The notes under the pieces are model-generated. The model searched no databases and was not told the DNA's origin. It was given only the letters and a program-made list of their open reading frames with translations. Position numbers and translations under genes: made by a program. A DNA stretch of 64,000 nucleotides, taken from a virus. The stretch lies in IMG/VR virus record IMGVR_UViG_3300025674_000015; one strand, given 5' to 3'. This document shows positions 46,307 to 63,345 of the stretch, one piece after another (positions within the stretch are counted from its first letter, which is position 1; every line of letters begins with the position of its first letter).

Positions 46307-46313
46307 AAGACAC

Positions 46314-46330
46314 CTAATTATATATAAATT
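46314..46330 (+). promoter_or_regulatory. Candidate late promoter (CTAATTATA / TATAAAT) at the start of the cargo island
   Basis: Intergenic; variant of the CTAWTTA motif. Confidence 0.4.
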
Positions 46331-46347
46331 ATAAAAGGTGTCCATTC

Positions 46348-46773
46348 ATGATAAAAGTCAAATTCCGCAGAAAACTTACCATTTTAGAAGACAAGAAGGC
46401 TTGTCCCCCTGCCACACAAGATTTAAAACTCAACACTAAAAATAGAAACTCTGCAATCAAAGCAGAACACATTCAGTACGGCCCTTTGAACCTTTCTGAT
46501 GAGGAATACTGGGAAAGAGCCGCAGAACATTGGAAAACAACACCAGAGGTTGCTAAGAAGTCTAAATGCGGCAATTGTGTTGCTTTTGATATTTCTCCAA
46601 GAATGGATGAGTGTATGCCGGGACCAGTTTCTGACGAAGACGGTCGTTTAGGTTATTGCTGGATGCATCACTTTAAATGTCATAGCGCCAGAACATGCTT
46701 TACTTGGGCCGCTGGTGGGCCGATCAAAGAAGATAGAGTGTCTATGGAGTGGCAGAAAAAGGGCGAAAAATAA
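46348..46773 (+). CDS. HiPIP-like Cys-rich (putative Fe-S) protein
   Basis: KCGNCVAF...GYCWMHHFKCHSARTCFTW resembles the HiPIP CxxC...C...CxxW spacing. Confidence 0.5.
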   Translation: MIKVKFRRKLTILEDKKACPPATQDLKLNTKNRNSAIKAEHIQYGPLNLSDEEYWERAAEHWKTTPEVAKKSKCGNCVAFDISPRMDECMPGPVSDEDGRLGYCWMHHFKCHSARTCFTWAAGGPIKEDRVSMEWQKKGEK

Positions 46774-48242
46774 TGCCTTATAAGATAAGAAAGATAAAGT
46801 GCAAAAAAGCAGATGGCTCTTCTGGAACTCATGTTGCTTATAAGAAGAGCGGCAAGCGTGTCGGTTGCACAGACGATCCGGAAGACTACAAAAAAGCCTT
46901 GTATGCTGCCGAACTAAACGAGCAAGAAGAGAACGAAGAAGCCATCATAAAAGATGTAGAAGATGAAGTCTTCTTACATTTTACAACGCGAGAAAGAGCC
47001 GAGAAGATAAAAGACATGAAAATGCTTTTAAAGTCTCCGCAAGATGTTCAAAAGTTTGGAACGGATACCATTGATGCAGTTTCTTTGATATGGGGAGAGT
47101 TTGTCCCAACAGTTCAAGTTAACCACATACTTGGTGAGGATATTGTAGCAGTCAAGTTCAGAACGCATCATCCACCTAAGTATGGTTTTGTCGAAGAAGT
47201 TAAATGGGATCAAGAAGAACTTCCAATATATGATATTGATATCATATCTTTTGAAGAGGCTGAAAGAGCATTGAAAAACACATCAGAAAAATATGATGAT
47301 ATGCAACAAATATTGTACAAGGAATCCAACATGAGAAAGCTTAAATTAAAAGATCCTTTGCCAAACTCTAAATACCAAAAAAAGGTTCGCAAAGGCCACA
47401 AAAAGAAAAAGAAAGAACTGATCGGATCAGGTGATGGCCCTGAGTCTTCTCCTTTCACTCAAGATCCTCCCTTTGAAAGATCAAAGTCTGCCCCTCCTTT
47501 AGGTGAAGGTAAAAAGAAAAAGAAGAAAAAAAGAAAAGTTAAAGTTAAAAAGAAATCAAAAGGTAAAGACGATCGTTGCACTCGTATTGCAAAAAGAAAA
47601 TATGATGTGTGGCCCTCTGCCTACGCTAGCGGCGCTGTTGTTAAATGTCGCCAAGGAAAGATTTGGAAAGGTATCACAGAAGAGCTTGATAAAAAAGAAA
47701 AAAGCGAAATTAAAAAGATTCAAAAAGAACTTGGGAATGCATCAGAGTCCCACAAAAAACTAGCGGATATCATGTCAGAATTGGAAGATGAGCTTGATGC
47801 ATTGGAAGATAAGTTTGAAGTTGAATTGGAAAAAGCCGCAGAAAAAATGAAAGCCGGCTCTAAAGCTCATGCAGACCAAGTTAAAAGATTGGACAAAATC
47901 ATTCAAGAAGAGGTTGAAGCCTTTTTGATGATGGAAAAGAAAAAAAAGAAAAAGAAAGCTAAAAAAAAAGTAAAAACTGACTTTTCCAAAGAAAAAGATA
48001 AAGGTCTCCATGGTTGGTTTGAAAGGCAAGGCGGCAAAGGAAAAAGCAAAGGTTGGGTTGATTGCAACACATGTCGGAAAGATAAAAAGACCGGAAAGAA
48101 AACTTGCAAAACTTGTGGAAGGCAAGAGGGTGAAAAAAGAGCAAAATATCCATCTTGTCGTCCAACACCGGCTGCTTGTGGAAGCAAGGGTAAAGGAAAG
48201 TCTTGGGGTAAGAAATCTGCTAAAAAGGGAAAGAAAAAATGA
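46773..48242 (+). CDS. Multi-module basic protein (putative polyprotein/internal head protein)
   Basis: Several small Cys- and Lys-rich modules separated by (I/L)-x-E sites. Start at ATG 46773 overlaps the upstream TAA. Confidence 0.7.
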   Translation: MPYKIRKIKCKKADGSSGTHVAYKKSGKRVGCTDDPEDYKKALYAAELNEQEENEEAIIKDVEDEVFLHFTTRERAEKIKDMKMLLKSPQDVQKFGTDTIDAVSLIWGEFVPTVQVNHILGEDIVAVKFRTHHPPKYGFVEEVKWDQEELPIYDIDIISFEEAERALKNTSEKYDDMQQILYKESNMRKLKLKDPLPNSKYQKKVRKGHKKKKKELIGSGDGPESSPFTQDPPFERSKSAPPLGEGKKKKKKKRKVKVKKKSKGKDDRCTRIAKRKYDVWPSAYASGAVVKCRQGKIWKGITEELDKKEKSEIKKIQKELGNASESHKKLADIMSELEDELDALEDKFEVELEKAAEKMKAGSKAHADQVKRLDKIIQEEVEAFLMMEKKKKKKKAKKKVKTDFSKEKDKGLHGWFERQGGKGKSKGWVDCNTCRKDKKTGKKTCKTCGRQEGEKRAKYPSCRPTPAACGSKGKGKSWGKKSAKKGKKK

Positions 48243-48934
48243 ATATTTCTAAAAAAAGAATCAAACAAATTATCAAAGAAGAATTAGAAGTTGTTTTGAG
48301 CGATCAAGAGGTTAAAGAGTTTTTTGGAGTAGATCCAAGTAATTTGAAAAAATCCTTGAACTCTGAAGTAGACAAAAGAATTGATATGCTAGAAGGTCAA
48401 TTGTCTGAAGGCATGAGATATCATATCAAAAACAACATTCCAGTTGATAAGAATATTTATCGCTTGAATTCTAAAAACTTCTTTTCTCTTTTTCGAGAAG
48501 CTAGAAGCTTGTACAAAAAAGATTTGGTGGTCTTATCAGAAAGTGAAAAGTATTATATCTCTGAAACTGACATTGGAGAGTTTGGAAGATATGGAAATAC
48601 AATGGTTCCTTTGGACTTCCCCATGGTTGAGGGCGAATCGATTTTGGAAGCAAAATACAAAGGAAAGAAAGTAACTTTAAACAGACCGCAAAGAGGCGGT
48701 TCTAAAAAGTTTTATGTTTATGTTAGAGATCCAAAGTCTGGAAACATTCGTAAAGTTTCGTTTGGCTCCAAAGGAATGTCTGTCAAGGTCGCTAGCCCGG
48801 AAAGAAGAAAGTCTTTCGCAGCACGACACAAATGCAAGGAAAAGAAAGACAAAACAAAAGCAGGATACTGGGCATGTCGCGTAGGGCGCTATCCACACTT
48901 GACCGGCTCTAAGTCTAGATTTACTTGGTGGTAG
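48239..48934 (+). CDS. Leader-bearing protein with a basic C-terminal module (DUF6321-like, RRKSFAARHKC)
   Basis: MNISKKRIKQIIKEELE leader; KVSFG...RRKSFAARHKC...AGYWAC. Confidence 0.7.
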   Translation: MNISKKRIKQIIKEELEVVLSDQEVKEFFGVDPSNLKKSLNSEVDKRIDMLEGQLSEGMRYHIKNNIPVDKNIYRLNSKNFFSLFREARSLYKKDLVVLSESEKYYISETDIGEFGRYGNTMVPLDFPMVEGESILEAKYKGKKVTLNRPQRGGSKKFYVYVRDPKSGNIRKVSFGSKGMSVKVASPERRKSFAARHKCKEKKDKTKAGYWACRVGRYPHLTGSKSRFTWW

Positions 48935-48935
48935 T

Positions 48936-49214
48936 ATGGAATTTCCTTTCAAAGAAAAGAAACTAGAAGATAATATTGTGATCAGAGAGTTTAAAGAGGA
49001 TGTTGACTCTGAAGAACTTGTTTGGCATAGAGATAGAGAAAATAGAGAAGTTACAATTTTGCAATCTTCTGGTTGGCAACTTCAAATGGATAATGAAGTA
49101 CCAAAAGATTTACAAGAAGGAAAGACATATTATATTCCAGCCTTTGTTTACCACAGGGTGATTAAGGGTAGTGGCGATCTTATTGTTAAAATAAAAAAGG
49201 AGCTAATAAAATGA
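48936..49214 (+). CDS. Small cupin-fold protein
   Basis: WHRDRE...YYIPAFVYHRV matches cupin motif 1/2 spacing. Confidence 0.65.
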   Translation: MEFPFKEKKLEDNIVIREFKEDVDSEELVWHRDRENREVTILQSSGWQLQMDNEVPKDLQEGKTYYIPAFVYHRVIKGSGDLIVKIKKELIK

Positions 49215-50236
49215 AATTAATAATGGAAAATTGGAGAAAGTTTGTTTTAAAAGAAAACGCCGGAGATTGGTATGACTCTGAGGATAACGATTATCCAGCA
49301 GCAAGTCCACCTGAGTATGCATCAGGTCTTCAAAGTAAAGAAGTTATTTCTTTGAAGAAGGGTGATGTATATAAAAAGGAAGGCAACACGCATGGCTTGA
49401 CTAGTCATAATATTAAACATTTAATGGAAATAAACCAAGATGTTGTGTATACACATATCAATGCAGCGATTGAGCATATTAAAGACGAAGGTATGCCAGT
49501 TTATAAGTCAGAGGCTAATGGTGCCAGCACTACTAAAGAAATCAATCCGGACCAAATCACAAGGGGTCAAGTGTTAAACATGTTTGATTTGATCAACGAT
49601 AAGATGTTTCAGGGTCCTAACTTGAGCCCAGAAGAGGAAACTATTTTTAAAAACTTTATCGAACCAATGAATAAGGTCTACCATAATCAAATACTTTTTA
49701 CAATTGTACGCAAAGCCCAAGACATTTCTGACAAAAAAGTCGACTCTTACGATGATTTGAAAAAGATTCTAGAAGAAAGGCCAACTGTAAAAGTAAAGGG
49801 GACTTATTCAGGGAGAGATAACACTTATTATGTAAATACACAGAATTCAGTGGTGGTGTCACAATTGCAAAGCGGCAAATATGCAACACTCTTCAAGTCA
49901 GTTAAAAGAAAAGATGACAAAATCTCTTTACAACAAGCGATTAAACAGTTTGGAACTAATAAAGGTAGTCAAGCAACTGACGAATATAGTCTTTTTAGGC
50001 AATATGTTGATCAATTGAATGCTGCTGTACAGCCACAACCGAAAAAGAAAAAGAAACAACAAAACAATCAAGGCAAGCTCAGTGTAATGGACTTTGCTAT
50101 GGAAAAGCTTAAAATAGGTCTGCCGGAAGAAAAAGTAGTCGAAATCATAATGAAAGCGCATAACAAGCCAGAACACGCCGCGAAAGGGATCGTTGCTGGC
50201 GCTAAAAAAAGAATGAAAACTCAAGAAGGACAATAA
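49211..50236 (+). CDS. Leader-bearing hypothetical protein
   Basis: MKLIMENWRKFVLKE leader; HGLTSHNIKH His cluster. Confidence 0.75.
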   Translation: MKLIMENWRKFVLKENAGDWYDSEDNDYPAASPPEYASGLQSKEVISLKKGDVYKKEGNTHGLTSHNIKHLMEINQDVVYTHINAAIEHIKDEGMPVYKSEANGASTTKEINPDQITRGQVLNMFDLINDKMFQGPNLSPEEETIFKNFIEPMNKVYHNQILFTIVRKAQDISDKKVDSYDDLKKILEERPTVKVKGTYSGRDNTYYVNTQNSVVVSQLQSGKYATLFKSVKRKDDKISLQQAIKQFGTNKGSQATDEYSLFRQYVDQLNAAVQPQPKKKKKQQNNQGKLSVMDFAMEKLKIGLPEEKVVEIIMKAHNKPEHAAKGIVAGAKKRMKTQEGQ

Positions 50237-50238
50237 TT

Positions 50239-52071
50239 ATGAAATTAATCATGGAAAACTTTCGTAAAGCAATGAAAGAATTCAAAGAAAGAGAAGCCGG
50301 CGTTATGTCGTATGATTCTTCTTTGGGCGGTTTTCGAGCTTCAGCAGAAGACATCTCAAAAATTAACGCTGCAATTGAAAAGATTTATACTGCTTTTGCA
50401 AAACTTACCGGCGGAGATATTGTTGACATTCCAACGTTGAATCCCGAAGCTTTATCTTCGGGTCAAGAAACTTTATCAGAAAATGTCGAGCTAGATCAAA
50501 AGTGGTCTGAATTGGAAGGGAAATTCTCTGAAGAACAGAAGAGAAACCTTTTCCTTCGATTTAAAGTCAATTCATGGGAAGAGCTGTCTGATGCGCAAAA
50601 AGAATTGGTGTTGGATCGATACAAATACTTTACTCCGGATAATCAACTTAAGCAGAAAATCGGAGCAGTCAGAGGCGTAGAAAAAGGTCTGGGAGGTATG
50701 ACTCCGGAAGATTTTGAAAAAGGGGAGTATGTTATTCCGGTTTCTAAAGAAGTTCTAGATGATTTTCAAACCATGGTTAATGAACTGAAAGAAGGCGGTG
50801 AAGTCGATAGCCTCTTTGAAAAGGCTAGAGATTGGTATCATAAAATTAGAGATCTCCTCGATGAAGAGACTGGAAACGATCAAGACGCTACTTTGCTTGG
50901 TCTTCTTATTGCGACATATAGCCCCAGAGCAAAATTTGCCTTGAACTTAGCTGAAGCTGCTTTTATGTTTAAAGCAGTTGAAATGGACGCAAAAGACAAC
51001 AAAGAACTTTTGAGAGAATATATTAACATCTTTCCGGGCGGTAAAAAGAAAGAACAGGGAGAGTTTCGAGGGTTTACGAACGCACACAAAGTTCCAAACT
51101 TTACTCTAAACCTGATCGCTCCAGATTTGGCCGGAGGCCGTGATGAGCAAGGAAGAATCAACTACAAAGAGCTTTACATGTGGAACTCTACAATCGACAC
51201 TTGGATGATTGATGCTTTTTATCCAAATGTCAAAGGTGTCACAACAGCAAAAGAATGGGAAACAATCAAAGGCAAGATGATGGGCAATGTTGTTAATTAT
51301 CGATACATGGCCGGACTAGTCGCACAGGAAGCGAAAAAGCTGGGTCTCTTACCTCACGAACTTCAAGCTATTGTATGGGTTGCTTCTCAAATCAGAAAGA
51401 CTGGAGAGAAAGGCCTTGGTGTTACTACTGAATTTGCAATCAACCAAATTAAACAATCCATTGTCAACCTAGAGAAGATTAAACAACAATTCAATGAAGA
51501 GGAAAGGATTAACAAGAAATTGGTCGGCCCTTATCTTGAAGAGTTGGATATGGACAAAGAATATACAGAACAGTTTGGAGATCAAAGCTGGCTTAAAGTT
51601 ATTTTGGATAAAATTGAATCAGATGGTTTTGATGTTGCTGCTGATTATATCTTGGGAATTAAAAAGGAAAAGAGTACTGTTGTTCCCGGTGTGCGCTCTA
51701 TCACAGCCTCCGGCCCGAAAGGGGAAGTTGATGCCGGCTTTCCCAATCCACCTCCCAAACCAAAAGCAGAAAAGGGAGCAAAAAAGAAAGATAAAAAAGA
51801 GAAAGTGGAGAAGCCACTTGAAGAATATCAAAATGCAGATAAATACGGAGAACTTAAAACATTTGAAGTCATGAATAATGTTATTCAAATGCCGACCGGA
51901 AAGTTCAACAACCTTCACGACTCAATTCTTATGTACTTGAGCGATGACTTCTCTAAAGAAAAGGCTGTTGATTATATTCTGGGCAGGTTCGACCCTCAAG
52001 CAACATCTTCCAAAGATTATTTCATCAAAGAAAGCAAAAGAAGATTTGTTGTAAGGATTTTGAGATCATGA
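50239..52071 (+). CDS. Leader-bearing protein with a putative DNA-glycosylase-fold domain (DUF7178-like)
   Basis: Ordered motifs WY, YSP, N, KVPNFTLNL, TIDTWM, Y, LQAIVWV. Confidence 0.55.
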   Translation: MKLIMENFRKAMKEFKEREAGVMSYDSSLGGFRASAEDISKINAAIEKIYTAFAKLTGGDIVDIPTLNPEALSSGQETLSENVELDQKWSELEGKFSEEQKRNLFLRFKVNSWEELSDAQKELVLDRYKYFTPDNQLKQKIGAVRGVEKGLGGMTPEDFEKGEYVIPVSKEVLDDFQTMVNELKEGGEVDSLFEKARDWYHKIRDLLDEETGNDQDATLLGLLIATYSPRAKFALNLAEAAFMFKAVEMDAKDNKELLREYINIFPGGKKKEQGEFRGFTNAHKVPNFTLNLIAPDLAGGRDEQGRINYKELYMWNSTIDTWMIDAFYPNVKGVTTAKEWETIKGKMMGNVVNYRYMAGLVAQEAKKLGLLPHELQAIVWVASQIRKTGEKGLGVTTEFAINQIKQSIVNLEKIKQQFNEEERINKKLVGPYLEELDMDKEYTEQFGDQSWLKVILDKIESDGFDVAADYILGIKKEKSTVVPGVRSITASGPKGEVDAGFPNPPPKPKAEKGAKKKDKKEKVEKPLEEYQNADKYGELKTFEVMNNVIQMPTGKFNNLHDSILMYLSDDFSKEKAVDYILGRFDPQATSSKDYFIKESKRRFVVRILRS

Positions 52072-52784
52072 AGATGGACGAAAAATATCCTCTTCTACCA
52101 CACGACGAAGAGATTTCAGATTGGCAATGGTGCATTAAAAAAGCAATCATTGATATTCACGCCAAAGCAATGCCTTATAAAAGAGGCACTTGGGGTGGCT
52201 CAACCGAAGATATCTATTACGATAAAAGAAGAATCTTGAGAAAAGGTGAAGGAACCTACTGCGTTGGATGCACTTCTGAAATCTTTTTCCGTGCTTGGAA
52301 GGAATTCACAGGAGATTATCTTGAAACACCAGAAGGCAACTTCACAGGTAAAGAAGCTTGGGAAGTTGCAAGAGCCTTTTTCTTTGCTTATAAAGACGAA
52401 GAGATCGACGGAATGCGAACAGACGAATTTGGAGCAATGGGTTGGTTTAAATGGTTGGCAAATAGGCCAGAACGCTTTGATTGGATTGAAACCTTCACAA
52501 CACATGATCCTTATGAGATCAAATTCGGAGATTGGGTTTCAATGCAGTTTGCAGAAGATTATTCATCCGGTCACGCCACAGTTGGATTGGGATTGGACAA
52601 GTACAAAGGCAATGATGTTGTTAACGTTTATTCTTCAACTACTTATTATGACAAAACTTGGATGAAAGAAAAAGGCGTTGAAAATCCTTATCCAACAGGG
52701 AACGGCTTTGATTATTACCGTTTAAACGTAACAAAGAATGGATTTAAAAGAAAGTTCTTTGTTTCAAGATTAGTTCAAAAATAG
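52068..52784 (+). CDS. Papain-like (NlpC/P60-type) Cys-His hydrolase, candidate endolysin
   Basis: GTYCVGCTSE and SGHATVGLG catalytic-type motifs; upstream of a holin-like gene. Confidence 0.5.
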   Translation: MKMDEKYPLLPHDEEISDWQWCIKKAIIDIHAKAMPYKRGTWGGSTEDIYYDKRRILRKGEGTYCVGCTSEIFFRAWKEFTGDYLETPEGNFTGKEAWEVARAFFFAYKDEEIDGMRTDEFGAMGWFKWLANRPERFDWIETFTTHDPYEIKFGDWVSMQFAEDYSSGHATVGLGLDKYKGNDVVNVYSSTTYYDKTWMKEKGVENPYPTGNGFDYYRLNVTKNGFKRKFFVSRLVQK

Positions 52785-52793
52785 GAGTTTAAC

Positions 52794-53225
52794 ATGCCTT
52801 ACCCTAAAGAAGTCGGCCTTTGGAGTGTCGGAAGCTATCAAGTTGCTGGAAAACCTTTTTTAACATCTTCAACTGCTCCGGCATCTGGTTCCGCAGTAAC
52901 ACCCTTGAAGATTACTTTTCCCTTTGTCACGAAAAAGCTCGTATTGACAAACAATGAACAAACAGCAAACGAAGATATGCGCCTTGCAATGTCTGCTAGA
53001 GGTGTTCGCGATGAAGTTGGAAATTACTTTGTGGTCCACGCAGAGAAAGATGGGAACGGCTATTTGGAGCTTGACATTAAATGCACAGAAGTCCATTTTA
53101 TGTCAGACGGCTCACATACTGCTGACTTCTCTCTTTATGCCGCTTTAACTGCAATTCCCGTTGAAAGAATTACAAATATTAGCCCAGATGGCACAAACTG
53201 GTCTGGCTCTGCGGGAATTGGATAA
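52794..53225 (+). CDS. Small beta-rich virion/decoration-like protein
   Basis: GLWSVGSYQVAGKPF start, two SGS motifs; AGGAG RBS. Confidence 0.55.
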   Translation: MPYPKEVGLWSVGSYQVAGKPFLTSSTAPASGSAVTPLKITFPFVTKKLVLTNNEQTANEDMRLAMSARGVRDEVGNYFVVHAEKDGNGYLELDIKCTEVHFMSDGSHTADFSLYAALTAIPVERITNISPDGTNWSGSAGIG

Positions 53226-53244
53226 ATTAAAATAGGAGTTTAAA

Positions 53245-53556
53245 ATGGCTAGAAAAACAGCTTTTGTTGATAAATATTTATCATCGTTTATTTCAAAAAA
53301 ATTGTTGGTTTGGATTGTCGCAACGGTCGTGTTCTTGACAACTGGTAATCTTAAATCAGGAGATTGGCTTGTAATCTCTGCTATTTACATTGGTGGGCAA
53401 TCTGTTATTGATGCGGTGAAAGCAATGAAAGGTTCGACTAACGTTACAACGAAAGTTGAAACAGCAGTGAAAACAATCTTATCCGACAAAGACAAGAAAG
53501 ATGAGAAAGGAAAAGTTCCCCTTTCTGATACAACAGGCGATACGGTGACAAAATGA
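53245..53556 (+). CDS. Holin-like membrane protein (2 TM segments)
   Basis: SKKLLVWIVATVVFL and WLVISAIYIGG hydrophobic helices; charged C-terminal tail. Confidence 0.6.
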   Translation: MARKTAFVDKYLSSFISKKLLVWIVATVVFLTTGNLKSGDWLVISAIYIGGQSVIDAVKAMKGSTNVTTKVETAVKTILSDKDKKDEKGKVPLSDTTGDTVTK

Positions 53557-53957
53557 GTGAGATTTGGGCAGAGGTTAAAAGAAAGTGGACAGAGTCCAAA
53601 TACTTTATAGCAATTGTTTTTGTTTTCTTGACAGTTGCTATTTTTCTTTTAACCACCAGCGATGGTCAAAAAAGATTAAGACAAATCATAAGGTCTTTGC
53701 AGAAAAGAAGAGAAGATGAATTGTATGAGATCCAAGAAAAGCAAAATCAAAAAGAAAAAGAAAAGAAAGATTTAAAAAAGAAACATGAGAAGATTTTGGA
53801 AGAGATTGGAAAAGAATACAAGATTGGAAAAGAAAACGCCAAGAAAGAATACGACAAGAAAGTTAAAAAGATCTTGAAACAAACAAAGAAAGATCCTTCC
53901 CAATTGTCCAAAAGATTGGCAGACGAATTTGGTCTTGATTACAAGGAGGGGGAATGA
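53553..53957 (+). CDS. i-spanin-like protein (N-terminal TM + coiled coil)
   Basis: YFIAIVFVFLTVAIFLL followed by a K/E coiled coil. Confidence 0.5.
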   Translation: MSEIWAEVKRKWTESKYFIAIVFVFLTVAIFLLTTSDGQKRLRQIIRSLQKRREDELYEIQEKQNQKEKEKKDLKKKHEKILEEIGKEYKIGKENAKKEYDKKVKKILKQTKKDPSQLSKRLADEFGLDYKEGE

Positions 53958-54394
53958 TTACCTTTAAACGCGTTTTAAGCACCATTCTAGCCACTTTCAT
54001 CACAATTTCGCCCTGCTATGCCAATAAGTCCACAAGACTCCAAAAAGGGGCAAAAGCGCCCTTCTCTGGAACGCTCTTGGATGATGAAGCAGTGGCAAAG
54101 ATTTTGGCAAAACAAGATTACTTGAAAAAAAGCTTGAAGCTGGATTGTTCTTATCAAAAACAAAAAGAAAAAGCAAAGCTTCAGTTGAAGATTGATCAAT
54201 GCAAAGTAGATTTCAAAATTGAAAAAGAATTGAGAAAAAACTTAAGAAAGATTGATCAAGAAGAGATCACAAGATTAAGAAAGATTGCAAAGCCGCAAAA
54301 CAATTGGACACCACTTTGGATCACAATTGGCTTTGTCGCAGGAGCAGGTACAACAATTTTAATTCTCTATGGAATACAAGGAATTCAAAAGTGA
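53954..54394 (+). CDS. Signal peptide + coiled coil + C-terminal TM protein (spanin-like partner)
   Basis: N-terminal signal-like RVLSTILATFITISPCYA; C-terminal LWITIGFVAGAGTTILILYG. Confidence 0.5.
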   Translation: MITFKRVLSTILATFITISPCYANKSTRLQKGAKAPFSGTLLDDEAVAKILAKQDYLKKSLKLDCSYQKQKEKAKLQLKIDQCKVDFKIEKELRKNLRKIDQEEITRLRKIAKPQNNWTPLWITIGFVAGAGTTILILYGIQGIQK

Positions 54395-54846
54395 AGATCA
54401 GAAAAGAAACCATTTTCAAGATCATCAAAGAAGAGATCGAAAGAGAGCTTTCAAAAGAAGAAAAGCACAAGATTGTTTCTTTTGATTTTGATGATACTTT
54501 AACCTTTGCTCCGTTTGATCCAGAAGAAGAAGATTTTGTTTACAAAGGGCCTCACAAAGAAATGCTGAATAAGATTAGAGGCTATATTGAAGATCCAGAA
54601 GTTGTCGTTTATATTGTAACAAGCAGAAAGCAAGGTGGCATGGGAGAAGTTAAAGAGTTTGTAGAAAAATATAAATTAAAAGTTGACGGCATTTATTACA
54701 CAGACGGAGATTGGAAAGCCCCAACTTTGAAAGATTTGGGTGTGACTTTGCATCATGACGACGATAGTGAAGAGAATAAAAGAGCAGAAGCAGTAGGAAT
54801 CCAAACAGTTCCAAGTAATCCATATGGTGATTACGGCACATTTTAA
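54391..54846 (+). CDS. HAD-superfamily phosphatase with leader
   Basis: FDFDDTL, VTSR, K and HHDD motifs. Start at GTG 54391 overlaps the upstream TGA. Confidence 0.8.
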   Translation: MKIRKETIFKIIKEEIERELSKEEKHKIVSFDFDDTLTFAPFDPEEEDFVYKGPHKEMLNKIRGYIEDPEVVVYIVTSRKQGGMGEVKEFVEKYKLKVDGIYYTDGDWKAPTLKDLGVTLHHDDDSEENKRAEAVGIQTVPSNPYGDYGTF

Positions 54847-54873
54847 AGCAACAGGCCAATGGAGAAGTTATAG

Positions 54874-55668
54874 ATGAAAAGTCATAATAGCAATATAAAA
54901 ATTAAAAAGAATCTTCTCTTCAAAATTTTGAAAGAAGAAATCAAAAAAGAACTTTTGAAAGAAGGTGTTTTAAGGATTCAAGATTATATTTCAAATGAAA
55001 ATTTGAAATTGATTGAAGATACGTTTCGCAACCTTTTAAATACATATTTAACTTCCGATAGAGAAGAAAGCCTTTATTGGAATGTTGAGAAATTTGAATT
55101 TATAAATGTTGCCGGAGAGGAGGAGGTTGTTGACTTGATGCTTTCCGTTGGTCGGCCACCAAGAGGAATGGAAGGGGCTGTTGCATATCTAGATGCTAGG
55201 CCCAGTATTGGCTATTACCACTTAGCAATGTGTGTGTTAAACAAGGAAGATTATGATATAGAGGACGGTATTGATACCATGATTAATCATGAATTAATTC
55301 ACTTGATAGATTCAAAATATTTTAAACGAAAAGACAGGAAAAAAGCTTACTTAGCTAGGCGAGAAGAAATTTTAGCTTTTTCTAGTCAGATATATAAACA
55401 GGTTGTTGACTTTTTAAATTCGGAAGATGAGCAGGACAAAGATTATTTGAATATTTTGCTTAATCTTTATAAAGATGGTGCGATAAAACAATTACAATTA
55501 TTTAAAGCTATATTAAAGACTAGTCAACAGCTTGGAGCGATAGGCAAAGATCCCAGATTTATAAAATCTATAATGCATCAACACACAATGAAAGATAAGC
55601 AACCTTATTTAAAACATCTTTACAAAAAATTGTGGCCATTGATTCAAAAGAAACTTAAGGAGGTTTAA
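54874..55668 (+). CDS. Zincin-like metallopeptidase with leader
   Basis: INHELIHLID...REEILAF; leader KILKEEIKKELLKE. Confidence 0.65.
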   Translation: MKSHNSNIKIKKNLLFKILKEEIKKELLKEGVLRIQDYISNENLKLIEDTFRNLLNTYLTSDREESLYWNVEKFEFINVAGEEEVVDLMLSVGRPPRGMEGAVAYLDARPSIGYYHLAMCVLNKEDYDIEDGIDTMINHELIHLIDSKYFKRKDRKKAYLARREEILAFSSQIYKQVVDFLNSEDEQDKDYLNILLNLYKDGAIKQLQLFKAILKTSQQLGAIGKDPRFIKSIMHQHTMKDKQPYLKHLYKKLWPLIQKKLKEV

Positions 55669-56039
55669 TGAAAGATCAAAATTATGTTGTAAAAGTAGAA
55701 AAAGCTATTTCAGAAAAATGGGGCTCAGAAGCTATTCAAAACCCAAAAGCAAATTGGGACAAAGAAAAAGAAAAAGAATATCTAGAAGAGTTGAAAAGAC
55801 TTGAAGAAAAGAAGAACTTTGATAACGAGCATGAAATAGAAAAGAACGGGTTTTTAATTAAATCAAATCTAATTAATAAAAAGAAAGACAAAAGAGAATG
55901 TGAAGCATGTGGAATATTTTCTTTTGATAACAAAGATAACCTTTACCTTTCAAAGTTTGGAACTTGTTGGAAATGTTGGATTCAATGGGTTGAAGGAAGA
56001 GAAGAAAGGTGGAAAAAAGGATGGAGACCAAACAAATGA
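55668..56039 (+). CDS. Hypothetical protein with CxxC...CxxC
   Basis: CEAC...CWKC; AGGAGG RBS. Confidence 0.75.
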   Translation: MKDQNYVVKVEKAISEKWGSEAIQNPKANWDKEKEKEYLEELKRLEEKKNFDNEHEIEKNGFLIKSNLINKKKDKRECEACGIFSFDNKDNLYLSKFGTCWKCWIQWVEGREERWKKGWRPNK

Positions 56040-57226
56040 AATTGACAAGAAAAATCTTGAAAGAGATGATTGAAGAAGTGATCAAGGAAGCAGCGCCAAA
56101 CAAAACAGCTAGGAGGAAAGATCCAGCGCAGATGAAGAGGGAAAAGGACTACGCCGCCGCGGTCGCGTCGAAGAACCCTGAGACCTGGGCCAAATCAGAC
56201 CGCCTTGTCGGTGATCTGGCCGTGAAGAATATCCGTGGAATTTCTTTTATCGGCAACCTTATGACCGTCCCAAAGGGCTCCACCGGAATACCGGAAGATT
56301 TAAAAACAAAAATGCTTAATGATTTAAGCGGCTCGAAGATTTTAGAGGCCATGGCGGGGTATAAATTGGTCTACGGAGAGCCGACGGATGAAGTTGAACT
56401 AATTTTTGTTGCTTTATTCCATCTTAACCGCGCTATCAAACAAAGTAAAGGAACAGATATTATATATGGCTTTAACCTTCTGAATTATGGGGGAAATTAT
56501 TTCACAGATGTTTTTAATAAGATTTCAAAAAGAGGTAGAGTGATTCTTTTTGATATTTTAAGAAAAGCCGGGCTTCCTTTGTCTAAAATTGTAAAAGATC
56601 CAAATGTGGCTAAACATCTTTCCCATACTTCACGCAGGAAAACTAGTATTCCACGCAAGAGAGTCAGGAAATCTGCAAGCAGGTACAGAAATAGAGCCTA
56701 CGTCGGAGCAGTTCAAAAAATTGTTAATTTGTTTGTTAAGGCTGGACAAATTGATACTCCACTCTTAACAGTTGACCGGTCTTATGGCCCCAAAACTAGG
56801 ACAGGTGTTAAAGCACTTCAGAGGAAATTGGGAGTTAAGCCCGATCGGTACTTCGGACCGAAAACTGCATGCGCTTTAAGTTCTCTTCTGCAAAGAGAAT
56901 ATACACATGACTCTGAATATCAGACGAAAGATAAGAAATGGCGGTCAGAAAATTGCAAGAGTCCCAGATGGGTTATAACATTAGCCTTTGACACCGCGCT
57001 GGAGGACATGTTGAAACGCAGCAAACAAAAAAAGAAAGCCGGCCCGCCCCCGTTCAACAAGGAAGATGGCAAGGCAAGACAACTTGGTGATCTTTTCGGC
57101 TTCCATGCCGCGCATGGCGTGGATGCGGCAGGACGACCACTTCCCCCGCCACCTCCCAAGGAGAAAGATGCCAAGCGAGCTGATGATCTTCTCGCCCGTC
57201 AACGCGCACAGAAGCAGCGGCGCTGA
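56036..57226 (+). CDS. Leader-bearing protein with a peptidoglycan-binding (PG_binding_1-like) domain
   Basis: VDRSYGPKTRTGVKALQRKLGVKPDRYFGPKT; start at ATG 56036. Confidence 0.7.
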   Translation: MKLTRKILKEMIEEVIKEAAPNKTARRKDPAQMKREKDYAAAVASKNPETWAKSDRLVGDLAVKNIRGISFIGNLMTVPKGSTGIPEDLKTKMLNDLSGSKILEAMAGYKLVYGEPTDEVELIFVALFHLNRAIKQSKGTDIIYGFNLLNYGGNYFTDVFNKISKRGRVILFDILRKAGLPLSKIVKDPNVAKHLSHTSRRKTSIPRKRVRKSASRYRNRAYVGAVQKIVNLFVKAGQIDTPLLTVDRSYGPKTRTGVKALQRKLGVKPDRYFGPKTACALSSLLQREYTHDSEYQTKDKKWRSENCKSPRWVITLAFDTALEDMLKRSKQKKKAGPPPFNKEDGKARQLGDLFGFHAAHGVDAAGRPLPPPPPKEKDAKRADDLLARQRAQKQRR

Positions 57227-57296
57227 TCTCCACGCAGACGGAGAAGGTCTCCACGAATCTGGGTATGGACTTATAACTAAAGGAAATAAAAAAAAC

Positions 57297-57815
57297 ATGC
57301 AAGCAAAAGAACTAGAAATCATCAGAGGAATCGCCCAAGCAGCTTCCATGGGTTACGATGGAGCTTTGGACGATGAAGGAAAGCCAATCAAAATTGGCTT
57401 GAAAAGAGACGAAGGAAATCCCATTGTTGACAGCCGACACATGGATGGCTTCAAAATTTCCTTCAAAGGTCCGGTCCTTTGTTTGAAATATCAAACAGAA
57501 GTAAAACTAAAAGACGTTCATCAAAAAGGATTTGAAAACGAAATCAGATCCACAATGAATTCAATTGCTTCTTTCCTTAAAAAAGAATACAAAAAAGTAA
57601 CAAAGAAAAACCTTAATTTAACTTCAATGGGCGAACCAAAGATTGACATTCAAAGAATTTCAAGTGTTCGTTCTGATCTTCATGCTTTCCAAGAGTTCAA
57701 AATTGGTGGCTTGACAAACACTTTGAAATATGGGCATTTAGAGTCCAAAGAAGAAAACGAAAGAAAGATTGAAGATTCAATCCGCAAATTTCTTGAATTA
57801 GGGAGAAAGAAATGA
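57297..57815 (+). CDS. Hypothetical phage protein (172 aa)
   Basis: ATG 57297 follows AAGGA. The ORF-track extension from 57066 overlaps the previous gene. Confidence 0.75.
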   Translation: MQAKELEIIRGIAQAASMGYDGALDDEGKPIKIGLKRDEGNPIVDSRHMDGFKISFKGPVLCLKYQTEVKLKDVHQKGFENEIRSTMNSIASFLKKEYKKVTKKNLNLTSMGEPKIDIQRISSVRSDLHAFQEFKIGGLTNTLKYGHLESKEENERKIEDSIRKFLELGRKK

Positions 57816-58837
57816 AAAAGAACATTTTAGAAGAAGCCTTGAGAAAGCAAATTAGAGAGATCCTTAGTGAAGAAGTGATGTTGGAGCAGCCATTTCCCGG
57901 GCTGGCCCGACCCCCGCGCAAGGGCGAACGAAACATACCCGCCAAGGCAGCACCGGCCAAGGCAGCGCCCGCAAAAGCAGCGCCCGCAAAAGCAGCGCCG
58001 GCCAAGGCAGCGCCCGCAAAAGCAGCGCCGGCCAAGAAAGCACCGAAGAAAGCACGGAAGAAAAAGTCTAGATATCGAGACATAGATTATGTCCAAGCGG
58101 TTAGTGACATTGCAAACAAATATGGCGAAGGAATAAGTATCTTCGAAGATCCTTCTCAAGGTCTATATCGCGACTTAGAACGTGAGACTTATGATAAAAA
58201 ACTCAAAAAAAGCGTAATAAAATTACAAAAAAAATTGGGTCTTAGAGGTCGTGAAGTAGATGGTTGGTTCGGGCCTAAAACGGCTTGTGTGCTTAAGATG
58301 AGCTCATTCGTCAAGAGGTTTAAATACAAGATTAATGTAGGCTGTTTTAAAAAAGAATGGGTCATGAAATTAGCCGATTATCTTCGCGAAGAAGAGCAGG
58401 CAAATGCCAGAAAAGGTGCAAGTAAATCAAAGCCTAAAAAAGCTAAAGCCTCTTTTAATGCATATTATAATCAATTTATGCGTTGGAAAAAAAGAATTTC
58501 TAGAATTCAAATTCTAGCAATGAATGGGATTCACAAGGTCACCGACTTTGGCGTCCGGTCAGAATTGAGCGAAATACGAGCTAGCCTCGAAAGATTAAAG
58601 AGGAAAGCGGTAGCAGATAACAAATTAGAAAATCGAGAATCGTTAATACAACAGATTTCAGACGAAATCATCGTAGTTGATGATATGCTAAAAGATCCCT
58701 CTAATTATGATTCTAGTATCAAACCGAGAGGTTACAAAACTGCTAAAAAATCTAAAATAAAAGAATCCAAATTCTCCAATGACAAAGAACTTCAAAATCT
58801 AATGGAATCGTTCAAAAAATTTACAAGGAATGACTAA
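57812..58837 (+). CDS. Leader-bearing protein with AKAAP repeats and a PG-binding-like domain
   Basis: SVIKLQKKLGL...VDGWFGPKTAC; domain paralogous to that in 56036..57226. Confidence 0.7.
   Translation: MKKNILEEALRKQIREILSEEVMLEQPFPGLARPPRKGERNIPAKAAPAKAAPAKAAPAKAAPAKAAPAKAAPAKKAPKKARKKKSRYRDIDYVQAVSDIANKYGEGISIFEDPSQGLYRDLERETYDKKLKKSVIKLQKKLGLRGREVDGWFGPKTACVLKMSSFVKRFKYKINVGCFKKEWVMKLADYLREEEQANARKGASKSKPKKAKASFNAYYNQFMRWKKRISRIQILAMNGIHKVTDFGVRSELSEIRASLERLKRKAVADNKLENRESLIQQISDEIIVVDDMLKDPSNYDSSIKPRGYKTAKKSKIKESKFSNDKELQNLMESFKKFTRND
57941..58045 (+). repeat. Tandem 15-bp repeat x7 (6x AKAAP + AKKAP)
   Basis: GC(C/A)AA(G/A)GCAGC(G/A)CC(C/G) units read directly. Confidence 0.95.
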
Positions 58838-58843: not shown

Positions 58844-60436
58844 ATGGGAAAATACAAACTAACCAAAAAACAAGTCAAACAAGAGATATTGAAATGCGGA
58901 AAAGATCCAGATTACTTTATCAAAAACTACGCTAGAATATCTCACCCCCTCAAGGGATTGATCCCTTTCCACACCTTTCCTTTCCAAGCACAGCTTTTAA
59001 AAGACTTTAACAGATACAGATTTAATATTATCCTAAAAGCTAGGCAGTTGGGTATTTCAACAATCTCTGCTGCTTATGTTTCTTGGTTAATGTTGTTTCA
59101 CAAAGAAAAGAACGTTTTGGTTATTGCAACGCAGTTCAAAACAGCAAAGAACTTGGTTCGCAAAGTAAAGCAAATAATGAAAAACGTTCCGGACTGGTTA
59201 AGGATCGCAACAATCAAGATCGACAACCAAGCTTCGTTTGAGCTTTCGAATGGTTCGCAGATCAAAGCAACATCGACTAGTTCGGATGCTGGGCGTTCTG
59301 AAGCGCTTTCTCTTTTGGTTGTTGACGAAGCTGCACACATTGAAAACATGGATGAGCTTTGGGCTGGTCTTTATCCTACAATCTCAACTGGTGGTCGCGT
59401 TATCGCTCTTTCAACTCCAAAAGGTGTTGGAAACTGGTTTCACAAAACTTGCTCAGAATCAATGCAAGAAAAAAACGACTTTTATTTAACAACTCTTCCA
59501 TGGGATGTTCACCCTGAAAGAGACCAAAAGTGGTTTGAAAAAGAAACCAGAAACATGACAAAAAGAGAGATCGCACAGGAATTGCTTTGCAACTTCAATG
59601 CTTCTGGTGAAACAGTGATTCATTCAGATGACCTAGAATTAATTGAACAAAAGATATGCGCTCCAAAATACAAAACCGGCTTTGATCGGAATTATTGGAT
59701 CTGGGAAGAATACAAATCAGGAAACACTTATCTTCTTTCTGCTGACGTTTCTAGAGGCGATGGAAAAGACTTTTCTGTTTTTCACATTATAAAATTAGAC
59801 ACAATGGAGATTGTGGCAGAATATCAAGGAAAAATGCAACCAGATCAATACGCTCCCTTTTTAGCTTCTGCCGGGAGAGAATATGGGAATTGCATGTTGG
59901 TTGTTGAGAACAACAACATTGGATATGGTGTTTTGGAAAAGCTTATGGATTTAGATTATCCAAACCTTTATTACTCTATCAAATCAACTCACGAATATAT
60001 CGATGCTGTTAGTGCAATTGGCAACTCAAATTCAGTTCCGGGCTTTACTACCAGTATGAAAACAAGACCATTAATTATTGCGAAGCTGGAAGAATTCGTT
60101 AGAAACAAACTAATTAATCTTAAGTCTATGCGCCTTTTGCAAGAGTTGAGAACGTTTGTTTGGAACAACGGAAGGCCGGAAGCAATGCGAGGATATAACG
60201 ATGATTTGGTTATGTCTTTGGCAATTGCTTGTTGGATTAGGGACACTGCCCTAGTTAAAAGCAAAAAAGATAGAGATTACAACAAAGCAATGTTAGATGC
60301 TTTGTTTGTTTCAAACACAAAATTAAACACTCAAATTAAAGGCATGGATGGATACAATAAAAAAGAAGATTTTATCTCAACTATGATTGAAGAAAAGAAA
60401 AATCAAAAAGAATTCTTTTGGATCTACAAAGGCTAA
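58844..60436 (+). CDS. terL: Terminase large subunit (T4 gp17-like)
   Basis: KARQLGIS Walker A, LLVVDEAAH Walker B, STPKG coupling motif, ADVSRGDGKDFS and NDDLVMS nuclease motifs. Confidence 0.95.
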   Translation: MGKYKLTKKQVKQEILKCGKDPDYFIKNYARISHPLKGLIPFHTFPFQAQLLKDFNRYRFNIILKARQLGISTISAAYVSWLMLFHKEKNVLVIATQFKTAKNLVRKVKQIMKNVPDWLRIATIKIDNQASFELSNGSQIKATSTSSDAGRSEALSLLVVDEAAHIENMDELWAGLYPTISTGGRVIALSTPKGVGNWFHKTCSESMQEKNDFYLTTLPWDVHPERDQKWFEKETRNMTKREIAQELLCNFNASGETVIHSDDLELIEQKICAPKYKTGFDRNYWIWEEYKSGNTYLLSADVSRGDGKDFSVFHIIKLDTMEIVAEYQGKMQPDQYAPFLASAGREYGNCMLVVENNNIGYGVLEKLMDLDYPNLYYSIKSTHEYIDAVSAIGNSNSVPGFTTSMKTRPLIIAKLEEFVRNKLINLKSMRLLQELRTFVWNNGRPEAMRGYNDDLVMSLAIACWIRDTALVKSKKDRDYNKAMLDALFVSNTKLNTQIKGMDGYNKKEDFISTMIEEKKNQKEFFWIYKG

Positions 60437-62512: not shown

Positions 62513-63345
62513 AAAAAGTTCGTCATAAACATAATAAGAAAAGAAATACCGCTTTTCTTTATGAGGCTTTGGTTCGTGAATTAACAGAGTCGGTTATAAA
62601 GAAAGATTTTGAAAGCAAAAAGAAAATTCTTTCTATTTTGAAAGAGTTTTTTAAAAAAGGCACCATGCTTAAAAAAGAGCTTGACATTTACAAAGCTCTT
62701 TATGAAACAAAAGAAGTTGATATTGCCAGTGCAGAAAAGATTTTGACTGAGGCGAAAAAGCAGCATAAGGTTGAAATTGACAAAACTCAACTTTTCAATG
62801 AACAAACAAGATTGATCAAAATGATCGCTTCAAGTTTGTCTAATAAGGTATTCAACAACTTTATTCCAAATTATCGTTCAATTGCAACAGTTTCGCAAAT
62901 GTTTGGAGATCTTCCGATCACTGATCGTGTTCTTTTAGAGCAAACAACGGTACGAAGAATGTCAACGATCTCTCTGATCAAAGAAGAGAAAGAAATCAAA
63001 CCAGTAACTCAATTAGCCTTTAAAACTTTCCTTAAGAAGTTTAATGAGTCTTACGGAGAGGAATTGGACGATTCTCAGAAAAAGCTTTTAGAGCAGTATG
63101 TTCTTTCTTACAGCGAAGATAATCCTGAATTTAAAATTCACATGAACGGCGTTATTTCAACTATCAAAGAAGAGATTGGCTTTATTTTGGAAAATGTAGA
63201 TTTAACTTTGGTAACAAAAGAAAGAATCAAAAAAGTGTACACAGTTGTTGAAGGTTTGGCAACAAAGCCAATCAACAAAGAAACAATCTCAAAGGTTTTG
63301 AAGGTTCAGAATCTGATCAAAGAGGTTAAGCAAAATGTCAATTAA
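62509..63345 (+). CDS. Head-region helical protein (possible prohead core/scaffold)
   Basis: KHNKKRNTAFLYEALVRE start; directly after the portal. Confidence 0.65.
   Translation: MKKVRHKHNKKRNTAFLYEALVRELTESVIKKDFESKKKILSILKEFFKKGTMLKKELDIYKALYETKEVDIASAEKILTEAKKQHKVEIDKTQLFNEQTRLIKMIASSLSNKVFNNFIPNYRSIATVSQMFGDLPITDRVLLEQTTVRRMSTISLIKEEKEIKPVTQLAFKTFLKKFNESYGEELDDSQKKLLEQYVLSYSEDNPEFKIHMNGVISTIKEEIGFILENVDLTLVTKERIKKVYTVVEGLATKPINKETISKVLKVQNLIKEVKQNVN

What the first reader, a model, noticed from the sequence alone, without database searches (positions are those of the whole stretch)
46348..58837. Island of unrelated proteins sharing a capsid-targeting-like leader: a candidate injected payload system
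Seen: genes with unrelated bodies begin with similar basic amphipathic leaders. These are MNISKKRIKQIIKEELE (48239), MKIRKETIFKIIKEEIERE (54391), IKIKKNLLFKILKEEIKKELLKE (54874), MKLTRKILKEMIEEVIKE (56036) and MKKNILEEALRKQIREILSEE (57812), plus a second type MKLIMENWRKFVLKE / MKLIMENFRKAMKE (49211, 50239; nearly identical 5' DNA). The motifs also occur internally (KRLDKIIQEEVE in 46773) and C-terminally (LQNLMESFKKF in 57812). Known: T4 internal proteins and Alt are encapsidated and then processed by the gp21 prohead protease after (I/L)-x-E; the internal proteins use a short N-terminal capsid-targeting sequence. Inference: a modular address tag loads a HAD phosphatase, a zincin protease, a glycosylase-fold protein, PG-binding proteins and Cys-rich modules into the head for ejection into the host (takeover or anti-defence).
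Basis: partly seen in the sequence, partly recalled or inferred. Interest (0 to 1): 0.88.

Follow-up and report, generated by a model that had tools for sequence, protein, structure and literature searches.

The report
Shared address tags on phage proteins
An abundant group of uncultured marine T4-like phages puts one of a few interchangeable short N-terminal tags, each ending in the cutting motif of the phage's own head protease, on hundreds of unrelated proteins, most likely to load them into the capsid as T4 does with its three internal proteins; neither packaging nor cutting has been shown.

Summary
Seven genes between the SbcCD-like gene and the terminase start with one of two leaders: type A (MKITKxQLKxIIKEE-like, about 22 aa) or type B (MKLIMENWRKF-like, about 14 aa).

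- **Position:** in 80 related contigs, 87 of 90 profile hits are N-terminal. Reversed and shuffled controls give none.
- **Spread:** a profile search of 1.84 billion proteins finds 5,573 clusters. An unbiased DNA-pattern sample of IMG/VR gives 237 tagged body families in 120 loci.
- **Selection:** synonymous codons vary, so selection acts on the peptide.
- **Shared ending:** types A and B, and a third tag (C) found in relatives, are unrelated in sequence. All end in hydrophobic-x-Glu, the T4 gp21 cleavage motif.
- **Protease:** every adequately sampled carrier is compatible with encoding a Peptidase_S77 prohead protease.
- **Modularity:** one HAD phosphatase body occurs with tag A, tag B, another N-terminus or none. 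A crossover inside leader DNA deleted a cargo gene in a relative.

Best reading (0.55): capsid-targeting propeptides of T4 CTS type, on a far larger scale. Packaging, cleavage and ejection are untested. The internal motif in gene 46773 is not significant.

This scan has already noted the same leader on other DNA (e1-5958573, e1-5725956). I found no publication describing it.

The parts
46348..46773 (+). First gene of the island, 141 aa, Cys-rich, no type A or B leader. Its N-terminus (MIKVKFRRKL) resembles the alternative N-terminus seen on some HAD homologues.
   Evidence: no family; P0165/P0166 N-termini; orthologue in L038 is preceded by a CTATTTA motif
46773..48242 (+). 489-aa Lys-rich modular protein. 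Its N-terminal Cys module (MPYK..C..GC) recurs on other bodies in relatives. The 'internal leader' is not significant.
   Evidence: (phrog_727, unknown function)
48239..48934 (+). Type-A leader plus basic body (C-terminal part matches phrog_7595 / weak DUF5754)
   Evidence: 39.8 bits
48936..49214 (+). 92-aa gene without a leader
49211..50236 (+). Type-B leader plus 326-aa ORFan body; absent from the close relative L038
   Evidence: (45.3 bits)
50239..52071 (+). Type-B leader plus 596-aa body with a short DUF7178 / phrog_3842 match
   Evidence: (50.5 bits)
52068..52784 (+). 238-aa gene without a leader, function unknown
52794..53225 (+). 143-aa gene, 92% DNA-identical to a gene that lies inside the head module (after family 0) in L038
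53245..54394 (+). Conserved backbone: two small membrane proteins and a lipoprotein-like protein with a C-terminal TM segment (lysis-cassette-like). Among the commonest neighbours of tagged genes.
54391..54846 (+). Type-A leader (helix, residues 5-22) directly ahead of a capless HAD phosphatase core (DxDxT at residues 32-36)
54874..55668 (+). Type-A leader (from residue 8) plus a body with an HExxH motif; the zincin-like fold is only a lead
55668..56039 (+). Conserved 123-aa Cys-rich (Zn-ribbon-like) backbone gene, no leader
56036..57226 (+). Type-A leader plus basic 378-aa body with a PG_binding_1-like segment; absent from L038
57297..57815 (+). Conserved gene directly upstream of TerL in relatives (small-terminase position), no leader
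57812..58837 (+). Divergent type-A leader plus an Ala/Pro/Lys repeat and a PG-binding-like segment paralogous to 56036; weak type-B-like C-terminus
58844..60436 (+). Large terminase (context)
60440..62512 (+). T4-type portal (context)
   Evidence: PF07230, 1e-74
62509..63345 (+). 278-aa post-portal protein, twofold enriched in [LI]-x-E: candidate prohead core protein

Best explanation
The leaders are capsid-targeting propeptides. Each is a short N-terminal helix or peptide: type A about 22 aa, type B about 14 aa, type C about 18 aa. The tag docks the attached protein onto the scaffolding core while the prohead assembles. The phage's T4 gp21-type (Peptidase_S77) prohead protease then cuts after the terminal hydrophobic-x-Glu and frees the cargo inside the head. 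From there it can leave with the DNA at the next infection. Because the tag is portable, any gene that acquires it becomes cargo, and the shared leader DNA also serves as a recombination joint for gaining and losing cassettes. Shown here: the tag's reality, position, peptide-level selection, interchangeability, conserved terminal motif, co-occurrence with the protease, and recombination within the leader. Inferred: docking, cleavage, packaging and ejection.
For: (1) The tags are position-specific and exceed all controls. In an unbiased IMG/VR sample, 297 of 317 type-A copies are N-terminal, and 237 body families carry a tag. Globally there are 5,573 clusters. (2) Selection is on the peptide: synonymous codons vary close to genome-wide usage, and the motif survives in a high-GC protein. 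(3) Conservation stops at position 22-23. Three unrelated tags share only their ending. Type A has [LIMV]-x-E ending at position 14 in 99% of copies and at position 22 in 45%, with E22 in 56% against a 10% background. Type B has it at position 14 in 82% and at position 6 in 100%. Type C has it in 33 of 33. The background is 2.3% per position. T4 gp21 cuts after L/I-X-E, and the T4 CTS ends I-A-E (PMC9026906). (4) Relatives encode Peptidase_S77 (6e-26). Of 18 independently sampled carrier records of at least 70 kb, 11 have it, against 10.7 expected from CheckV completeness if all do. (5) Composition-corrected [LI]-x-E is enriched 2-3 fold in the counterparts of T4's gp21 substrates: MCP 2.3, scaffold-position protein 2.0, protease 2.6, family 0 3.1, post-portal protein 2.0. 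It is about 1.2 in TerL, portal and other genes, and 0.95 in cargo bodies. (6) Family 0, encoded directly after the protease, starts with a related helix. Tagged genes also sit inside the head module. (7) One HAD body occurs with tag A, tag B, another N-terminus or none, and leaderless homologues begin a few residues after the L-x-E. Two more families show A/B swaps. (8) No other conserved enzyme partner is present. The recurrent neighbours are packaging, head and lysis-like genes.
Against: There is no direct evidence of packaging, cleavage or ejection. h-x-E is a three-residue motif that Glu/Leu/Ile-rich helices produce easily, and at position 22 of type A it is present in fewer than half of the copies. 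The enrichment z-scores come from homologous, non-independent sequences. Tagged genes near TerL rarely have their own late-promoter-like motif (1 of 44), so late expression is not established there. Tagged islands also occur far from the head genes. About a fifth of ORFs in these regions are tagged, some up to 600-700 aa, which is a lot of cargo. Two tagged proteins carry PG-binding-like segments next to lysis-like genes and could act outside the virion. The leaders have no detectable sequence homology to the T4 CTS. Similar 'capsid tag' readings elsewhere in this scan received low odds on later checks.
Confidence: 0.55

Rival explanations
1. The tags dock the proteins to some other shared partner or structure, such as the tail lumen or baseplate, a membrane-bound assembly site, a chaperone or a host hub. 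The terminal h-x-E would then be incidental.
For: Tagged islands exist far from the head genes. C-terminal and internal copies exist. A comparable shared tag elsewhere in this scan turned out to track a different partner (e1-127136).
Against: No alternative conserved partner gene accompanies the tags. Three unrelated tags converge on the protease motif. A related helix heads the gene next to the protease. Cargo bodies are relatively poor in the motif, while head-core proteins are rich in it.
Confidence: 0.2
2. The leader is a generic N-terminal helix for oligomerisation, solubility or efficient translation start. It persists mainly because its DNA acts as a recombination joint that spreads gene cassettes.
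For: A crossover inside leader DNA deleted the HAD body in L030/L031. Island segments are 96% identical between phages whose TerL is only 72% identical. 5' codons are A-rich. Type A has a heptad-like pattern.
Against: Synonymous sites vary freely, so the DNA itself is not conserved. Types B and C are too short for a coiled coil yet replace type A on homologous bodies. N-terminal position and a fixed terminal Glu are not needed for recombination.
Confidence: 0.15
3. The leader is a recognition sequence for a modifying enzyme (RiPP-like: one maturase, many precursors).
For: A conserved leader with hypervariable bodies is the RiPP pattern, and many cargo proteins are small (50-130 aa).
Against: No maturase-type gene recurs next to tagged genes. 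Bodies include folded enzymes and repeat proteins: HAD, AAA_33 and pentapeptide repeats.
Confidence: 0.05
4. Chance or compositional resemblance in a Lys/Glu/Ile-rich proteome.
For: The genome is AT-rich (about 36% GC), and the leaders are rich in K, E and I.
Against: There are no hits in reversed or shuffled controls. The motif is kept in high-GC proteins. 5,573 clusters reach E<=1e-3 in a library of 1.84 billion proteins. The N-terminal bias is extreme.
Confidence: 0.01

Closest known systems
T4 capsid targeting sequence (CTS) and internal proteins IPI-III and Alt (PMC9026906, PMC3012670, PMC5694885)
   Same: A short (10-20 aa) N-terminal peptide is shared by otherwise unrelated proteins. 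It ends in the L/I-x-E site of the S77 prohead protease. Adjacent genes can share identical leader DNA (T4; here). Cargo genes are hypervariable between relatives. The phage has T4-type portal, protease, MCP delta-domain and scaffold.
   Different: There is no sequence homology to MKTYQEFIAE. At least three tag types are used side by side and swapped on the same body. There are 5 to 13 or more tagged genes per genome and hundreds to thousands of body families, against a handful in T-even phages. Internal and C-terminal copies and multi-copy chains occur. Packaging and cleavage are not demonstrated.
P1 Dar antirestriction proteins and the N-terminal packaging signal of DarB (PMC9024508)
   Same: An N-terminal segment (30 residues in DarB) is sufficient to load a protein into the head. 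The cargo is injected and counters host restriction.
   Different: In P1 the signal is not a shared consensus on many unrelated proteins, loading is stepwise through DarA/Hdf, and P1 has a different protease and no common motif.
Propeptides of inner-body and ejection proteins of phiKZ, 201phi2-1 and SPN3US (PMC5694885, PMC9026906)
   Same: Many head proteins are processed by a gp21-related protease after Glu, and the propeptides are thought to target the prohead.
   Different: Those propeptides are mostly longer than 100 residues and are not one portable consensus tag. Here the tags are 14-23 residues and stereotyped.
Polyvalent proteins of phages and conjugative elements (PMC5512222)
   Same: Both are multi-module 'beads on a string' conflict proteins proposed to travel with the DNA. 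Multi-leader chains occur here, and one cargo gives an LPD23/zincin-like lead (below the reliable score).
   Different: Most tagged proteins here are single small bodies, and the unifying feature is the leader, not the domain repertoire. Membership was not established.
Encapsulin cargo-loading peptides (from my own knowledge, not checked here)
   Same: A short terminal peptide directs unrelated cargo into an HK97-fold shell.
   Different: Encapsulin peptides are usually C-terminal and are not cleaved, and the shell is not a virus.

Membership tests
T4-type CTS / internal-protein system | Short conserved N-terminal peptide on otherwise unrelated proteins | tested here: met
T4-type CTS / internal-protein system | Peptide ends in the prohead-protease site (L/I-x-E) | tested here: met
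   Statistical only: type A 99% at position 14 and 45% at position 22; type B 82% at position 14; type C 33 of 33; background 2.3% per position
T4-type CTS / internal-protein system | Genome encodes a Peptidase_S77 (gp21-type) prohead protease | tested here: met
   Met in relatives and in 11 of 18 fragmentary carrier records, against 10.7 expected. The window ends before the gene; an unchecked note places it just beyond the window end.
T4-type CTS / internal-protein system | Sequence homology of the leader to the T4 CTS | tested here: not met
   Leader profiles give no hit in T4. The T4 CTS was verified in the T4 record.
T4-type CTS / internal-protein system | Tagged proteins are present in virions with the tag removed, and the tag suffices to load a foreign protein | not testable with these tools
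   No cultured carrier with virion proteomics. Only Flavobacterium phage immuto has one short variant.
Giant-phage (phiKZ-like) ejection-protein propeptides | Long propeptides (mostly over 100 aa) specific to each protein | tested here: not met
   Conservation ends at residue 14-23
RiPP-like leader plus maturase | A conserved modifying enzyme encoded beside the tagged genes | tested here: not met
Polyvalent proteins | 2-15 conflict domains in one polypeptide, with signature LPD or peptidase domains | tested here: inconclusive
   Multi-leader chains. The LPD23 lead scores only 0.85. No Pfam hits.
HAD phosphatase superfamily (gene 54391) | DxDxT nucleophile motif and Rossmann-like HAD fold | tested here: met
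   Invariant FDFDDTL and HHDDD. Model pLDDT 83. Foldseek hits to MDP-1, AphA, HisB-N and T4 Pnkp phosphatase, E about 2e-4.

The most novel reading that the evidence does not exclude
An abundant clade of marine T4-like phages (genomes from about 150 to 290 kb) uses a small code of interchangeable, protease-removable address tags (A, B, C and perhaps more) to load a hypervariable library of hundreds to thousands of protein families into the head for delivery with the DNA. The same tags punctuate multi-cargo chains and act as recombination joints. If so, the injected effector repertoire of uncultured phages could be read directly from sequence.
Probability: 0.45. Interest if true: 0.82.

Novelty: new variant of a known kind. 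Interest (0 to 1): 0.7.

Why it matters
T4's capsid-targeting sequence is a textbook case, but it is known for only a handful of proteins in T-even phages. Here the same logic appears on a different scale in a widespread, uncultured marine lineage. There are several unrelated tags, dozens of tagged genes per genome pair, and thousands of protein clusters in metagenomes. If the tags do load the head, they give a sequence-only way to list the proteins that phages inject alongside their DNA. Candidates include DNA-mimic-like pentapeptide-repeat proteins, phosphatases, kinase-like proteins and metallopeptidase-like proteins, most of them ORFans. That would open a large pool of candidate anti-defence and takeover factors, and would offer natural packaging tags for marine phage engineering. 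The result also annotates an N-terminal module that Pfam and NCBIfam do not cover.

Tried and rejected
The genomic context of the global hits therefore had to come from IMG/VR scans.
- tblastn of a two-leader protein and of a 32-aa leader against 50,697 cultured phage records gave nothing credible. This is probably due to the short query and low-complexity masking.
- Leader profiles gave no hit in T4, Syn9 or HTVC008M, and one weak hit each in Mel-JY01 and immuto. No proteomics-backed carrier was found.
- The T4 late promoter TATAAATA is not enriched. Sigma-70-like promoters and terminators do not exceed chance in the island.
- PDB sequence searches for four cargo bodies gave nothing. Pfam and NCBIfam do not cover the leader. 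Only phrog_7338, of unknown function, matches it.
- A literal search for the motif in papers found only unrelated matches.
- The likeness of T4 gp67 ('LIKEE...FLIEGEE') to type A is only qualitative, since the profile does not reach it. I do not use it as evidence.
- The h-x-E-(G/N)-x-K stretch before internal copies may simply be an in-frame Shine-Dalgarno sequence. I do not count it as a second cleavage site.
- Compositional artefact, RNA/DNA-level conservation and a RiPP-like system were considered and rejected.

Full report
**Setting.** The window is part of an uncultured marine myovirus distantly related to T4.
- It has a T4-type portal (PF07230, 1e-74) and a large terminase.
- The nearest cultured relatives by portal are Microcystis phage Mel-JY01 and the Flavobacterium 'immuto' phages, at 42% identity.
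- All genes run on the + strand. From 46348 to beyond the portal they are packed with overlaps of 1-4 nt or gaps below 30 nt, apart from one 70-nt gap before the gene in the small-terminase position.
- No whole genome is held for the window.

**Observation.**
- A six-frame scan of the window finds strong matches only at these N-termini, all inside 48.2-57.8 kb.
- The internal motif claimed in gene 46773 is not significant, and the C-terminal one in 57812 is weak.
- The two type-B genes share about 22 bases of near-identical coding DNA, and nothing more.

**More than chance.** I fetched 80 related IMG/VR contigs around TerL, at 61-78% identity.
- A profile made only from the five window leaders hit 61 proteins there, 56 within the first 30 residues, and none in reversed sequences.
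- After one iteration there were 90 hits, 87 of them N-terminal, with none in reversed or shuffled controls. The first 30 residues hold only 12% of all residues.
- The tagged proteins fall into 31 unrelated body families, 23 with type A and 8 with type B.
- A 24-leader profile run against 1.84 billion representative proteins found 5,573 clusters at E<=1e-3. All those examined are marine metagenome sequences.
- In those 120 loci, 306 of 1,583 ORFs carry type A, and 297 of 317 copies are N-terminal. A further 36 ORFs carry type B, although the loci were chosen by type A alone. Together they form 237 tagged body families.

**Anatomy of the tags.**
- Type A is conserved for 22-23 residues (M-K-I-T-K-s-Q-L-K-Q-I-I-K-E-E-L-x-x-v-L-x-E) and then falls to background. 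Position 22 is Glu in 56% of copies (background 10%), and position 20 is hydrophobic in 64% (background 23%). I-K-E ends at position 14 in 99%.
- Type B (44 unique leaders) has [LIMV]-x-E ending at position 14 in 82% and at position 6 in all.
- A third tag, type C (R-K-N-x-K-R-I-D-P-R-Y-F-L/M-x-E), heads 28 different N-terminal variants in 26 loci. It is always N-terminal and always ends in F-(L/M)-x-E.
- The per-position background for the motif is 2.3%.
- So three tags with no similarity to each other share only their position and their ending. That ending is the L/I-X-E site of T4 gp21 (PMC9026906), as in the T4 CTS, which I verified in the T4 genome on two adjacent genes with identical 30-nt DNA.
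- Synonymous codons at conserved residues vary close to genome-wide usage: six Leu codons and four Thr codons are used. The motif also persists in a high-GC protein. Selection is therefore on the peptide.

**Link to the head.**
- Relatives encode a Peptidase_S77 prohead protease (6e-26; phrog_207, 1e-53) and a gp23-type MCP (1e-73) downstream of the portal.
- The MCP N-terminus is homologous to the T4 gp23 delta-domain.
- Of 18 pattern-sampled carrier records of at least 70 kb, 11 have S77. The sum of their CheckV completeness predicts 10.7 if every carrier has one copy.
- Of the same 18 records, 13 have a TerL 48-66% identical to the window's, including genomes of 273 and 288 kb. The tags are thus a trait of one far-T4 clade. 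T4, Syn9 and HTVC008M lack them.
- The gene directly after the protease (family 0, 131-144 aa) begins with a related amphipathic helix ending I-F-E-E-G. Its positional counterparts in Mel-JY01 and immuto begin with type-A-like and type-B-like sequences.
- Tagged variable genes also sit 5-7 kb downstream of TerL, beside the protease.
- Composition-corrected [LI]-x-E counts are 2-3 fold enriched in the counterparts of T4's gp21 substrates: MCP 2.3, scaffold-position protein 2.0, protease 2.6, family 0 3.1 and the post-portal 270-aa protein 2.0. They are about 1.2 in TerL, portal and other genes, and 0.95 in cargo bodies. The members of each family are homologous, so these z-scores overstate independence.

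**Modularity.**
- Homologues of the HAD-like cargo (invariant FDFDDTL and HHDDD) occur with type A, with type B, with a different long N-terminus, or with none. The leaderless forms start a few residues after the point where the tags end.
- The AlphaFold model (pLDDT 83) shows the leader as a single, less confident helix (residues 5-22) ahead of the first strand. The body matches capless HAD phosphatases.
- Two further families carry type A in one phage and type B in another.
- In L030/L031 a crossover inside the leader-coding DNA joined the HAD gene's leader to the next gene's body and deleted the HAD body.
- Island segments are 88-96% identical between the window and L038, while TerL and portal are only 72-73% identical. 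Several tagged genes (49211, 56036, 57812) are present in one phage and absent from the other.

**Where the tagged genes lie.**
- In five near-complete relatives, most type-A hits are within 10 kb of TerL. G003, however, has a second island of at least seven consecutive tagged genes, and G001 has a smaller one.
- In the unbiased loci the commonest untagged neighbours are the gene in the small-terminase position, a Zn-ribbon-like gene, three small membrane or lipoprotein genes, and TerL (each in 50-58 of 120 loci). Portal, the post-portal genes, SbcCD and the protease follow. No modifying enzyme recurs.
- A strand-biased motif, CTATTTA(A/T), precedes scaffold-position, small-terminase-position and tail genes, and 5 of 7 tagged genes in G003's second island. 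It precedes only 1 of 44 tagged genes near TerL, which sit inside operons. Expression timing is therefore unresolved.

**Cargo.**
- Identified bodies include two pentapeptide-repeat proteins (8e-56 and 8e-28) and an AAA_33 kinase-like protein (1.5e-12), and the HAD phosphatase.
- One body has an HExxH motif with weak M78/M48/LPD23-like leads. Its structural alignments start after the leader.
- Two basic proteins carry PG-binding-like segments.
- Most bodies match nothing.
- Among the highest-scoring global hits, many proteins contain 2-4 leader copies, some without an internal Met. In the unbiased sample only 6% of copies are internal or C-terminal.

**Reading.** The best-supported mechanism is T4-like. 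The tag docks the protein to the prohead core, and the S77 protease removes it at the terminal Glu. The cargo stays in the head and can leave with the DNA. I put this at 0.55. Everything after 'the tag exists and ends in the protease motif' is inference. The rivals are docking to another partner (0.2), a generic helix spread by recombination (0.15), a RiPP-like recognition sequence (0.05) and chance (0.01).

**Novelty.** I found no paper describing these tags, and no Pfam or NCBIfam model covers them. Notes from this scan report the same type-A leader in other genomes (e1-5958573, e1-5725956, e1-5368238) and a tagged array elsewhere in this genome (e1-5660338). Those notes are unchecked AI readings, and I used them only as leads. 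The system is a new variant of a known kind. It has the T4 CTS logic, but with unrelated and multiple tags, and it is vastly expanded.

Noticed in passing
L064:15404-15952 and 25 other loci (e.g. L101:1115-1489, L076:15256-15945): A third N-terminal tag (type C: R-K-N-x-K-R-I-D-P-R-Y-F-L/M-x-E) sits on about 28 different bodies and always ends in F-(L/M)-x-E. One copy lies directly before the prohead protease gene. It is not present in the window.
   Followed up: partly
window 46773-46920; L112:1856-2464, L125:6556-6726, L148:2904-3098: The N-terminal Cys module of gene 46773 (MPYK..C..GC..KK.LY) recurs as a shared start on bodies of 56-211 aa in relatives. It may be a fourth portable module.
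   Followed up: partly
window 52794-53225 vs L038:16573-16980: This 143-aa gene is 92% DNA-identical to a gene that lies inside the head module (after family 0) in L038. In the window it sits in the island, so it has been either relocated or duplicated.
   Followed up: no
window 50650-55796 vs L038/L041: Mosaicism: island segments are 88-96% identical in DNA to L038, while TerL and portal are only 72-73% identical. This implies recent exchange of island cassettes between diverged phages.
   Followed up: partly
window 53245-54394: Three conserved small genes, two with one TM segment each and one with a lipoprotein-like N-terminus plus a C-terminal TM, look like a holin/spanin-type lysis cassette sitting upstream of the terminase.
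   Followed up: no
window 18666, 35161, 37928, 37944; L038:702, 9422, 19396; L081 upstream of 5295, 7291, 8762, 9593, 10840: CTATTTA(A/T) is strand-biased (15 on + against 1 on -). It lies 27-45 nt before tail, scaffold-position and small-terminase-position genes, so it is a candidate late promoter of this clade. T4's TATAAATA is not enriched.
   Followed up: partly
codon 14 of type-A leaders (e.g. window 48278-48280): Glu14 is GAA in 29 of 29 leaders (genome-wide 63%), while the next Glu uses both codons. This may reflect avoidance of an AAGGAG-like internal Shine-Dalgarno sequence.
   Followed up: no
L023:16430-16663: A ribosomal protein S21-like gene follows family 0 in the head module, with the same synteny as the annotated RpsU gene of Mel-JY01.
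   Followed up: no
L081:1-5000 (G003 40-45 kb): The first 5 kb of this stretch is GC-rich with overlapping ORFs on both strands and repeated short peptide motifs, unlike the rest of the phage. It may be a foreign insert or an assembly chimera.
   Followed up: no
window 22045-31302: A 3,085-aa ORF lies in the tail/baseplate region. It was not examined.
   Followed up: no
L081:13692-14717 and L082:10696-11697: A nucleotidyltransferase-like family carries a type-B-like motif at the N-terminus in one phage and at the C-terminus in another.
   Followed up: no
window 46312-46347: An inverted repeat (ACACCT...AGGTGT) encloses an AT-rich loop directly before the first gene of the island.
   Followed up: no
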